Assembly (NCBI GenBank): GCA_965223435.1
Contig: CBDCWQ010000023.1
Location: forward strand, 71,381-135,380
Source: Myxococcota bacterium
GTDB lineage: Bacteria > Myxococcota > Kuafuiibacteriia > Kuafuiibacteriales > Kuafuiibacteriaceae
DNA length: 64,000 nucleotides
Direction of reading: 5' to 3'
In this document: piece by piece, positions 7,642 to 64,000 of the stretch
Position numbering within the stretch: position 1 is the stretch's first letter
Layout: each line of letters begins with the position of its first letter
Position numbers and translations under genes: made by a program
Notes under the pieces: model-generated
What the model was told of the DNA's origin: nothing
Seen by the model: only the letters and a program-made list of their open reading frames with translations
Database searches by the model: none

Positions 7642-7665
<24 letters not shown>

Positions 7666-64000: not shown

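What the first reader, a model, noticed from the sequence alone, without database searches (positions are those of the whole stretch)
7642..64000. Four paralogous giant secreted proteins with a constant N-terminal scaffold and swapped C-terminal payloads: a polymorphic-effector-like family I cannot assign to any named system
Seen in the sequence: ORFs A (7642-15795, minus), B (28525-32955, plus), C (33284-46339, plus) and D (50281 to beyond 64000, minus) share colinear blocks.
- (i) A Sec signal peptide in A, B and C. The N-terminus of D lies outside the window.
- (ii) A duplicated GW(N/Q/D)(L/F)...W...Y...L.PG.(G/A)YW module.
- (iii) In A, C and D, an FN3-like segment plus a BNR-motif region.
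- (iv) A ~500-aa helical module with near-identical motif strings.

After the module they diverge. A has a long unique region ending with HELGH. B ends in RNase III. C carries beta-sandwich modules, LamG, LRR and an unknown domain. D has a ~1400-aa unique region followed by four RNase III/dsRBD-like modules.

Two subfamilies are visible. C and D stay alignable for roughly 700 aa past the module. Examples: YESYFGLPCQDLSALYKAL versus MERYLGLSCEDTTQLFEAH, and LPGILHRWMQTGE versus LPVFLLHRMLKTGQ. A and B share a Gly-rich hydrophobic segment instead.

Inference: the constant-scaffold, variable-tip logic is that of polymorphic toxins (Rhs, CdiA, MafB, LXG). However, none of their hallmark domains (YD shell, FHA/TPS, PAAR/VgrG, LXG) occur in these four ORFs. 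A genuine Rhs toxin sits among them. The four genes occupy about 60% of 64 kb.
Basis: partly seen in the sequence, partly recalled or inferred. Interest (0 to 1): 0.92.

Follow-up and report, generated by a model that had tools for sequence, protein, structure and literature searches.

The report
Expanded family of giant exported proteins
The four huge genes are real paralogues of an unannotated family of signal-peptide-bearing proteins: a conserved head built from two sugar-enzyme folds is fused to heavily shuffled tails, and the family seems to have about 145 or more divergent copies in one or very few genome assemblies, but it lacks the hallmarks of classical polymorphic toxins.

Summary
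A, B, C and D share a ~550-aa module at 42-46% identity. A, C and D also share a ~700-aa N-terminal region.

- **Module:** AlphaFold and Foldseek place it as an (alpha/alpha)6 six-hairpin barrel. No Pfam, NCBIfam or PDB sequence family matches it.
- **N-terminal region:** it is a sialidase-fold six-bladed propeller with Asp-boxes.
- **Tails:** they differ. B has an intact RNase III. D has one intact and three degenerate RNase III modules. C has LamG plus plant-type LRR. A has a poorly conserved HExxH.
- **Family size:** a profile search of 1.84 billion proteins finds 263 relatives, with median length 3,073 aa among the 151 retrieved. The head is shared by more than 100 of them. The last 300 aa fall into 73 unrelated groups.
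- **Origin:** all 26 members looked up are singletons lying on only 10 contig lengths. This points to one or very few assemblies.
- **Against classical polymorphic toxins:** there are no adjacent immunity genes, known trafficking domains or catalogued toxin domains.

My best reading (0.45) is a Sec-exported arsenal in which a glycan-directed head carries shuffled hydrolase and binding tails. Function is not demonstrated.

The parts
7642..15795 (-). Gene A, 2717 aa (TTG start, which gives a signal-peptide-like N-terminus)
   Evidence: The database gene call P0013 starts 50 aa later, but the family consensus places GWNL about 40-55 aa after Met.
15256..15633 (-). A: two small 'GW...GYW' beta modules (aa 55-180)
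   Evidence: family consensus
12976..15168 (-). A: sialidase-fold beta-propeller region with Asp-boxes (aa ~210-940)
   Evidence: AF2 model with pLDDT 80-95 over aa 210-715. Foldseek matches NEU1, pseudaminidase and trans-sialidase. The profile hits bacterial sialidases at E 2.6e-9.
10984..12702 (-). A: conserved (alpha/alpha)6 six-hairpin module (aa 1032-1604)
7642..10983 (-). A: variable tail (aa 1605-2717), with a Gly-rich hydrophobic segment near aa 1745-1770 and HELGH at aa 2540 (nt 8164-8178)
28525..32955 (+). Gene B, 1476 aa: short form (signal peptide, two GW modules, module, tail) with no propeller
29140..30705 (+). B: six-hairpin module (aa 206-727)
32605..32904 (+). B: RNase III domain (aa 1361-1460) with the E..E..D / D..E catalytic set intact
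   Evidence: Pfam 52.8 bits against a cut-off of 27
33284..46339 (+). Gene C, 4351 aa
36215..38002 (+). C: six-hairpin module (aa 978-1573)
38003..40150 (+). C: second conserved block (~700 aa), shared with D and about 70 family members. Its consensus looks like further alpha/alpha repeats.
   Evidence: No PDB sequence hit.
41087..41587 (+). C: LamG / concanavalin-like domain (aa 2602-2768)
43091..43609 (+). C: plant-type leucine-rich repeats (aa ~3270-3442)
   Evidence: Pfam; PDB GSO1 at 1.3e-45
50281..64000 (-). Gene D. At least 4572 aa lie in the window; the full length is 4762 aa (P0011) and the signal-peptide-like N-terminus lies outside the window.
59434..61068 (-). D: six-hairpin module (window numbering aa 978-1522)
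52753..53052 (-). D: RNase III module 1 (aa 3650-3749), catalytic residues intact
50527..52194 (-). D: three degenerate RNase III-like modules (aa 3936-3988, 4149-4245, 4393-4491) that have lost the catalytic acids
4522..4758 (+). Orphan relic: a 55-aa fragment 85% identical to the pre-tip junction of family member P0045 (aa 3054-3108). It is out of frame with the overlapping ORF listed at 4379.

Best explanation
A-D belong to a hugely expanded, previously unannotated family of Sec-exported modular exoproteins.

**Shown.**
- Each protein begins with a signal-peptide-like N-terminus and two small GW beta modules.
- In most members a sialidase-fold six-bladed propeller with Asp-boxes follows.
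- Then comes a very strongly conserved (alpha/alpha)6 six-hairpin barrel.
- About half the family adds a second ~700-aa conserved block.
- Behind this head sits 0.7-4.9 kaa of mosaic tail assembled from many low-copy modules.

**Inferred.**
- The head is a glycan-directed unit that binds, and possibly cleaves or transfers, a surface polysaccharide. It thereby targets or anchors the protein on an envelope (prey, host or its own).
- The shuffled tails bring different hydrolases and binding modules: RNase III, aspartyl and serine-type peptidases, a possible metallopeptidase, GNAT, LamG and LRR.
- The family is therefore a combinatorial extracellular attack or digestion arsenal. It is not an immunity-linked polymorphic toxin system.
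For: **Paralogy and architecture.**

**Module fold.**
- AF2 gives pLDDT 83.6 and pTM 0.86.
- All top Foldseek hits are (alpha/alpha)6 sugar enzymes: AGE epimerases, GH100, GH37 and GH63, with probability 1.0 and TM up to 0.58.
- The invariant polar motifs TGA.AW, EHN.D, DN.SW and H.EAT sit at the N-terminal ends of alternate helices. That is where six-hairpin enzymes place their pocket.

**Propeller.** The profile hits bacterial sialidases at E 2.6e-9 to 1e-5. Foldseek finds NEU1, pseudaminidase and trans-sialidase.

**The module is autonomous and older than the family.**
- It occurs alone in Kofleriaceae (440 aa), flanked by MltA, an M15 peptidase and a pectin-acetylesterase-like gene.
- It occurs alone in Omnitrophota (612 aa), directly after a GspD secretin.
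- The propeller-then-module order recurs in an Omnitrophota ORF of at least 6150 aa (propeller hmmsearch E 1e-49).

**Tails.**
- They are mosaic: 73 tip clusters.
- Scaffold and tail are decoupled.
- One Gly-rich module occurs in A, in B (aa 852-1020) and in C (aa 3714-3880) at different positions.
- GC3 is the same in heads and tails.

**Enzymes in the tails.**

**Surroundings.** The neighbouring genes are also exported proteins: Rhs/TcBC, clostripain, an Ig-repeat protein and lipoproteins.
Against: - No activity, localisation or target is known.
- The fold matches are distant (8-12% identity, TM 0.4-0.58). Catalytic residues could not be mapped because no model coordinates were available.
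- The sialidase FRIP arginine is not recovered in the alignment.
- About 90% of tail sequence has no recognisable domain.
- An intact RNase III acts on dsRNA, which is normally intracellular. That fits a delivered toxin at least as well as a digestive enzyme.
- No secretion system for crossing an outer membrane lies in the window.
- The organism and its lifestyle are unknown.
Confidence: 0.45

Rival explanations
1. The family is a genuine polymorphic toxin or effector system on a new scaffold. The conserved head is a receptor-binding and translocation device, and the tails are toxins that act inside competitor or host cells. Immunity is either unnecessary because the targets are not kin, or is encoded elsewhere.
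For: - The scaffold is constant while the tips are hypervariable, and the two are decoupled.
- B and D carry a catalytically intact RNase III, whose substrate is intracellular.
- An orphan tail fragment, 85% identical to another member's pre-tip junction, lies nearby. It resembles an orphan cassette.
- An Rhs/TcB-TcC toxin lies in the same cluster.
- Sec-dependent export is an accepted trafficking mode for such toxins (PMC3482391).
Against: - There is no small ORF after any of A-D; the gaps are 77-328 nt.
- No PT-HINT, PT-VENN, releasing-peptidase or catalogued toxin domain was found in 44 members scanned.
- The variable regions are multi-kiloresidue mosaics, not compact tips.
- RNase III, sialidase and toroid are each mentioned zero times in the 2012 survey.
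- Three of D's four RNase III modules are catalytically dead.
- There is only one relic, and it lies on the opposite strand to A.
Confidence: 0.15
2. The family is a variable surface-coat, adhesin or recognition multigene family. The glycosidase-like folds are inert binding or anchoring modules. The many paralogues provide surface diversity (phase or antigenic variation, or partner and kin recognition) rather than enzymatic attack.
For: - There are about 145 or more divergent paralogues, apparently in one genome. That is a pattern typical of variant surface families.
- Binding modules are present: LRR, LamG, BACON and an FG-GAP region in the Alteromonadaceae relative.
- Catalytic motifs are degenerate in several tails.
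- Some copies are frameshifted or truncated: P0001, P0002 and P0004.
Against: - The module keeps a dense set of invariant polar residues across phyla, and it exists as a stand-alone 440-830 aa protein. That argues for a catalytic or specific ligand pocket.
- Intact RNase III, aspartyl protease, alpha/beta hydrolase and GNAT domains are present.
- No cell-anchoring signal was recognised.
Confidence: 0.2
3. They are ordinary nutritional polysaccharide-degrading enzymes (CAZyme-like), and the long tails are carbohydrate-binding or accessory modules.
For: - Both conserved head domains have glycoside-hydrolase-type folds.
- Some members carry LamG, Glucodextran_B or BACON modules. One tail contains a GH16-like EIDIE motif (seen in the sequence).
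- The Alteromonadaceae relative has CBM-like N-terminal repeats. This is a reading of the sequence, not an HMM match.
Against: - There is no match to any CAZy-type Pfam family, even at E<=10.
- No sugar transporter or regulator lies in the window.
- RNase III, proteases and GNAT are not expected in a saccharolytic enzyme.
- About 145 paralogues of 1.5-7 kaa would be unprecedented for one substrate class.
- The family is almost absent from 185,579 species genomes.
Confidence: 0.12
4. A-D are divergent TcA-like components that partner the neighbouring TcB/TcC-type Rhs protein in an ABC (Tc) toxin complex.
For: - A SpvB + FG-GAP + TcdB_toxin_midN + RHS protein lies between A and B.
- TcA proteins are also about 2500 aa and contain a domain named 'neuraminidase-like' (from my own knowledge).
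Against: - None of the TcA Pfam families as I recall them (VRP1, TcA_TcB_BD and others) appears among the hits of A-D at E<=0.01.
- No Tc toxin appears among the PDB sequence hits that were shown for A, C and D (C's list shows only the best 60 of 201), nor in the top 50 Foldseek matches of either model.
- A-D have signal peptides and unrelated tails.
- The family has about 145 copies, against a single TcBC gene here.
Confidence: 0.02

Closest known systems
Polymorphic toxin systems (Rhs, CdiA, MafB, LXG; Zhang et al. 2012, PMC3482391)
   Same: A long conserved N-terminal part is joined to C-terminal regions that differ between otherwise related proteins. Export is Sec-dependent. There is one nearby orphan fragment of another member's tail.
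   Different: - No adjacent immunity gene.
- No known trafficking, repeat or pre-toxin domains.
- The tails are multi-kiloresidue mosaics.
- The diversity seen is between paralogues of one genome, not between strains.
Modular multi-effector exotoxins (MARTX-type; from my own knowledge)
   Same: They are giant secreted proteins in which a conserved part carries a variable assortment of enzymatic modules.
   Different: No RTX repeats, cysteine protease domain or T1SS signal was found. The head here consists of glycosidase-type folds. MARTX toxins were not compared directly.
GH33 sialidases / BNR-Asp-box propellers
   Same: The fold is a six-bladed propeller with SxDGGxSW Asp-boxes. The profile matches Micromonospora and other sialidases.
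   Different: - Only one blade aligns by sequence.
- Pfam BNR_2 scores 16.4 bits against a cut-off of 31.4.
- The FRIP arginine is not recovered.
- There are large insertions.
Six-hairpin (alpha/alpha)6 enzymes: AGE-family epimerases, GH100 invertases, GH37 trehalases, GH63
   Same: The overall fold is the same, and the conserved polar residues sit at the starts of alternate helices.
   Different: Identity is 8-12% and TM 0.4-0.58. No Pfam or NCBIfam hit appears even at E<=10. It is a new sequence family.
Giant proteins of Omnitrophota (bioRxiv 10.1101/2023.11.21.568195 and 10.64898/2026.06.07.730766)
   Same: - An Omnitrophota ORF of at least 6150 aa carries the same propeller-then-module pair.
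- A stand-alone module gene lies next to a secretin.
- Those papers propose envelope attack by secreted giant proteins.
   Different: - Those giants are over 30,000 aa, with many TM helices and SecA-like domains (abstract).
- A-D are 1.5-4.8 kaa with only a signal peptide.
- The 2026 preprint has no occurrence of sialidase, BNR, six-hairpin or propeller. The 2023 preprint was read only as an abstract.

Membership tests
Polymorphic toxin systems | Conserved N-terminal region with C-terminal regions that vary between related proteins | tested here: met
   This holds between paralogues; the variable part is 0.7-4.9 kaa.
Polymorphic toxin systems | Small immunity gene immediately downstream in the same operon (PMC3482391) | tested here: not met
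   The gaps after A, B, C and D are 206, 328, 77 and 175 nt. The next genes are a convergent 1018-aa ORF, gene C, a convergent hydrolase and a 691-aa lipoprotein.
Polymorphic toxin systems | Known trafficking, repeat or pre-toxin domains (TPS/FHA, PAAR/VgrG, LXG/WXG, RHS/YD, MafB, PT-HINT/VENN) | tested here: not met
   Pfam and NCBIfam scans of A-D, and Pfam scans of 40 relatives, show none. Only a Sec-type signal peptide is present.
Polymorphic toxin systems | Tips differ between strains at orthologous loci, through recombination with orphan cassettes | not testable with these tools
   All 26 members looked up are singletons on 10 contigs of apparently one assembly. One orphan fragment exists at 4522-4758.
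Rhs / YD-repeat toxins | RHS/YD repeats forming a shell | tested here: not met
   There are none in A-D. They occur only in the neighbouring ORF 22450-28404.
Tc toxin TcA subunit | TcA Pfam domains, or structural similarity to the TcA shell and channel | tested here: not met
   The Pfam hit lists of A-D contain none of the TcA families as I recall their names. No Tc toxin appears among the PDB sequence hits shown or in the Foldseek top 50.
GH33 sialidase | Six-bladed propeller with Asp-box repeats | tested here: met
GH33 sialidase | Catalytic set (FRIP Arg, Arg triad, Tyr/Glu, Asp) and family HMM above threshold | tested here: inconclusive
   BNR_2 scores 16.4 bits against a cut-off of 31.4. 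The FRIP position aligns to non-conserved S-Y-P. Conserved R449, R569, R649, Y632, E467 and D456 exist but could not be placed in 3D.
Six-hairpin glycosidase / AGE superfamily | (alpha/alpha)6 barrel fold | tested here: met
Six-hairpin glycosidase / AGE superfamily | Sequence membership in a described family, with its catalytic residues | tested here: not met
   No Pfam hit at E<=10 for 12 modules. No NCBIfam or PDB sequence hit.
RNase III | Signature motif with the catalytic E/D residues, and Pfam score above the gathering threshold | tested here: met
   B scores 52.8 bits and D 89.9 bits against a cut-off of 27. The catalytic residues are intact in B and in D module 1, and lost in D modules 2-4. 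No dsRBD was detected.
Bacterial alpha-2-macroglobulin (MG domains plus thioester domain) | CxEQ thioester motif, and MG or A2M domains | tested here: not met
   The conserved Cys lies in C-L-E-[YF], without Gln. No A2M Pfam or PDB hits were found. Foldseek's best hits are sugar enzymes.

The most novel reading that the evidence does not exclude
The GW-GW / sialidase-like propeller / six-hairpin head may be a previously undescribed delivery or anchoring platform. It would define a new class of combinatorial effector proteins. One bacterium would then have amplified it into about 150-250 giant paralogues (roughly 1.3 Mb of coding DNA or more), with tails generated by intragenomic module shuffling. 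That would be a bacterial counterpart of eukaryotic variant or effector multigene families. The new six-hairpin domain would be an enzyme acting on cell-envelope glycans.
Probability: 0.25. Interest if true: 0.85.

Novelty: new variant of a known kind. Interest (0 to 1): 0.7.

Why it matters
- **New domain family.** The work defines a six-hairpin barrel with no Pfam, NCBIfam or PDB sequence match. It also defines a conserved two-fold 'head' that recurs in giant proteins of at least two phyla.
- **Extreme expansion.** It exposes what looks like one of the most extreme paralogue expansions of giant exported proteins in a bacterial genome. The 151 retrieved proteins total about 451,000 residues.
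- **Testable hypothesis.** If the head targets envelope glycans and the tails are interchangeable enzymes, this shows how predatory or host-associated bacteria could diversify extracellular weaponry without the immunity-gene logic of polymorphic toxins.
- **Link to an open question.** It connects to the unresolved function of giant proteins in Omnitrophota.
- **Tractable experiments.** The stand-alone 440-830 aa module proteins offer a workable entry point for biochemistry.

Tried and rejected
**Alternative identities tested and rejected.**
- **TcA-like partner of the neighbouring TcB/TcC.** No sequence or fold match.
- **Alpha-2-macroglobulin thioester-domain reading of the helical module.** No CxEQ motif and no MG domains.
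- **A's HELGH as a metalloprotease payload.** The motif is kept in only A and P0040 among 8 related tips, so this is weak.
- **dsRBD and FN3 claims.** No Pfam support.
- **Foreign origin of the tails.** GC3 is equal in heads and tails.
- **Neighbouring genes as free-standing tail modules.** Only a weak hit (22% identity) was found, between the alpha/beta hydrolase and P0041/P0029.

**Searches that found nothing.**
- The second conserved block has no PDB sequence hit.
- The search for homologous proteins found only 8 + 1 short or frameshifted relatives.
- The look-up of encoding contigs failed for B, P0001, P0002, P0003 and P0152.
- The JGI metagenome, IMG/VR and plasmid scans found no relative.
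- The GTDB genome scan found only 6 distant loci.

**Taxonomy.** It could not be settled. The DUF4291 protein's best hit is Archangium at 56%. The alpha/beta hydrolase has no close relative. The window contains no tRNA or Rfam hit.

**Literature.** Searches found no description of this family.

Full report
**1. Observation**

The four ORFs exist as described:
- A: 7642-15795(-), 2717 aa.
- B: 28525-32955(+), 1476 aa.
- C: 33284-46339(+), 4351 aa.
- D: from 50281(-), open to the window edge. Its full-length form in the protein library is P0011, 4762 aa.

Together they occupy 61.5% of the window.

All-against-all BLASTP confirms colinear paralogy:
- A ~550-aa module is 42-46% identical in all four (A1032-1604, B206-727, C978-1573, D978-1522).
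- A and C align over 1655 aa at 35%.
- A, C and D share the region before the module.
- C and D stay alignable for about 700 aa after it.

B is a short form in which the module directly follows the N-terminal GW modules.

A, B and C have hydrophobic signal-peptide-like N-termini. D has one just outside the window. Every protein has two GW...GYW modules.

**2. What the constant parts are**

The module has no Pfam hit, even at E<=10 across 12 members. It has no NCBIfam hit and no PDB sequence hit.
- An AlphaFold model built on 12 sequences is confident (pLDDT 83.6, pTM 0.86).
- Foldseek matches only (alpha/alpha)6 barrels: glucose and cellobiose 2-epimerases, GH100 invertases, GH37 trehalases and GH63 (E about 2e-4, TM up to 0.58, 8-12% identity).
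- The invariant motifs TGA.AW, EHN.D, DN.SW and H.EAT lie at the starts of alternate helices. Six-hairpin enzymes place their pocket there. This is an inference, because no model coordinates were available.

The region before the module is all-beta.
- The AF2 model has pLDDT 80-95 over aa 210-715 of A.
- Foldseek matches NEU1, the Pseudomonas pseudaminidase, trans-sialidases and henipavirus G propellers.
- A 16-sequence profile hits bacterial sialidases at E 2.6e-9 to 1e-5 through an Asp-box blade.
- The FRIP arginine is not recovered. Catalytic competence is therefore open.

A second conserved block of about 700 aa follows the module in C, D and about 70 relatives. Its consensus looks like further alpha/alpha repeats. 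It has no PDB sequence match.

**3. The variable parts**

- **B:** ends in an RNase III domain with the full catalytic set.
- **D:** has four RNase III-like modules. Only the first is intact. No dsRBD was detected.
- **C:** carries LamG and plant-type LRRs.
- **A:** its HELGH is conserved in only 2 of 8 related tips.

A Gly-rich hydrophobic module occurs in A and in B (aa 852-1020), and also at C aa 3714-3880. The same module therefore sits at different positions in different proteins.

**4. The family**

A profile search of 1.84 billion representative proteins finds 263 relatives. Of these, 203 have E<=1e-30. The 151 retrieved have a median length of 3,073 aa and a maximum of 7,218 aa.
- 113 of the 151 have the propeller region.
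- The pre-module region is shared by more than 100 of 139 members. Beyond the second block, tail sequence is shared by few. By residue count, 12% is unique, 53% is shared with 1-9 members and 25% belongs to the second block.
- The last 300 aa form 73 clusters among 139 proteins.
- Scaffold and tail are decoupled. A's closest module relatives (64-65% identity) share 0% of its tail. About one third of pairs with 60-100% module identity share less than 10% of the tail. A's tip family also sits on scaffolds closest to C.
- Pfam recognises almost nothing in 40 further members. The hits are one GNAT, two aspartyl proteases, one alpha/beta hydrolase with a TAP-like domain, plus LRR, LamG, Glucodextran_B and BACON_2.
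- GC3 is equal in heads and tails, so the tails are compositionally native.

**5. Where the family lives**

- All 26 members looked up, A-D included, are singletons at 90% identity from NCBI/ENA. They lie on only 10 contig lengths: 2,023,055 (A-D plus the 7,218-aa P0140), 1,379,488, 1,349,314, 1,185,363, 853,945, 705,195, 435,157, 338,645, 156,182 and 85,349 bp.
- Eight of the last ten looked up fell on contigs already seen. The roughly 145 listed giants therefore most likely come from one assembly of at least 8.5 Mb, or from very few. Only 26 were checked.
- The 151 retrieved proteins total 451,412 aa.
- The four window genes are not each other's nearest relatives.
- Some copies look frameshifted.
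- A 55-aa relic at 4522-4758(+) is 85% identical to the pre-tip junction of P0045, which lies on another contig.

Elsewhere the module is very rare.
- It was found at 6 loci in 185,579 species genomes.
- It was not found in the JGI metagenomes, IMG/VR or plasmids.
- In Kofleriaceae it stands alone, next to MltA, an M15 peptidase and a pectin-acetylesterase-like gene.
- In Omnitrophota it stands alone next to a secretin, and it also follows the same propeller inside an ORF of at least 6150 aa.

**6. Interpretation**

The constant-head, variable-tail logic is real. The membership test for polymorphic toxins fails on three counts:
- There is no adjacent immunity gene; the gaps are 77-328 nt. PMC3482391 treats that adjacency as defining.
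- There are no known trafficking or pre-toxin domains.
- The Pfam scans returned no domain I recognise as a catalogued toxin domain.

Between-strain polymorphism cannot be tested with one genome. TcA and alpha-2-macroglobulin readings were tested and rejected.

The best-supported reading (0.45) is a Sec-exported arsenal. In it, a glycan-directed head made of two glycosidase-type folds targets or anchors shuffled hydrolase and binding tails. The rivals are:
- a true toxin-delivery system on a new scaffold (0.15);
- a variable surface or recognition family (0.20);
- nutritional CAZymes (0.12);
- a TcA-like partner of the neighbouring TcB/TcC (0.02).

**7. Novelty**

The kind of protein, a modular secreted protein with interchangeable C-terminal parts, is known. 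Three things appear undescribed:
- the scaffold;
- the new six-hairpin family;
- the scale of the within-genome expansion.

Literature searches found nothing matching.

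Noticed in passing
window 22450-28404 (+): A 1984-aa exported protein carries SpvB, FG-GAP, TcdB_toxin_midN and RHS repeats, so it is a TcB/TcC-type fused Rhs shell. Its C-terminal ~300 aa have no Pfam match. No TcA gene lies nearby.
   Followed up: partly
window 4522-4758 (+): A 78-codon open frame holds a 55-aa fragment that is 85% identical to P0045 aa 3054-3108, the junction before that member's tip domain. 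It is out of frame with the ORF listed from 4379. It looks like an orphan tail relic.
   Followed up: yes
window 4379-7435 (+): This protein has a receptor-L domain and LRRs. Its true start is probably near 4830, where a lipobox-like LIGGC follows a hydrophobic stretch. Its GC is about 0.50, against 0.57-0.61 for the surrounding genes. The neighbouring gene 611-4093, with six Big_7 Ig repeats, has GC 0.525.
   Followed up: partly
window 18663-21794 (+): An exported clostripain-family (C11) peptidase is fused to a lamin-tail domain.
   Followed up: no
window 46417-47967 (-): This is an alpha/beta hydrolase with a TAP-like C-terminus. The same domain pair occurs inside the tail of family member P0029, and P0041 gives a weak BLAST match to this gene. 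Identity to this gene is only about 22%.
   Followed up: partly
window 48030-50105 (-) and 16991-18469 (+): Two exported proteins (691 aa, lipoprotein-like, and 492 aa) have no Pfam match. The first lies 175 nt downstream of D on the same strand.
   Followed up: no
window 43091-43609 (+), in C: The LRRs are of the plant receptor-kinase type (GSO1 and FLS2, E 1e-45 to 1e-40). The locus also has receptor-L, lamin-tail and HYR hits, so it is rich in eukaryote-like extracellular modules.
   Followed up: no
window 50527-53052 (-), in D: One catalytically intact RNase III module is followed by three degenerate copies. The arrangement suggests pseudo-dimers with a single active site.
   Followed up: partly
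L004 8357-13151; L001 7578-11536: Stand-alone module genes sit next to MltA, an M15 peptidase and a pectin-acetylesterase-like gene in Kofleriaceae. In Omnitrophota one sits directly after a GspD secretin and an ORF of at least 2557 aa. These are hints of an envelope-directed, secreted function.
   Followed up: partly
P0001, P0002, P0004, P0152 (relatives on other contigs): Several family members end in out-of-frame junk shortly after or within the module. They are either pseudogenes or frameshift errors in the assembly.
   Followed up: no
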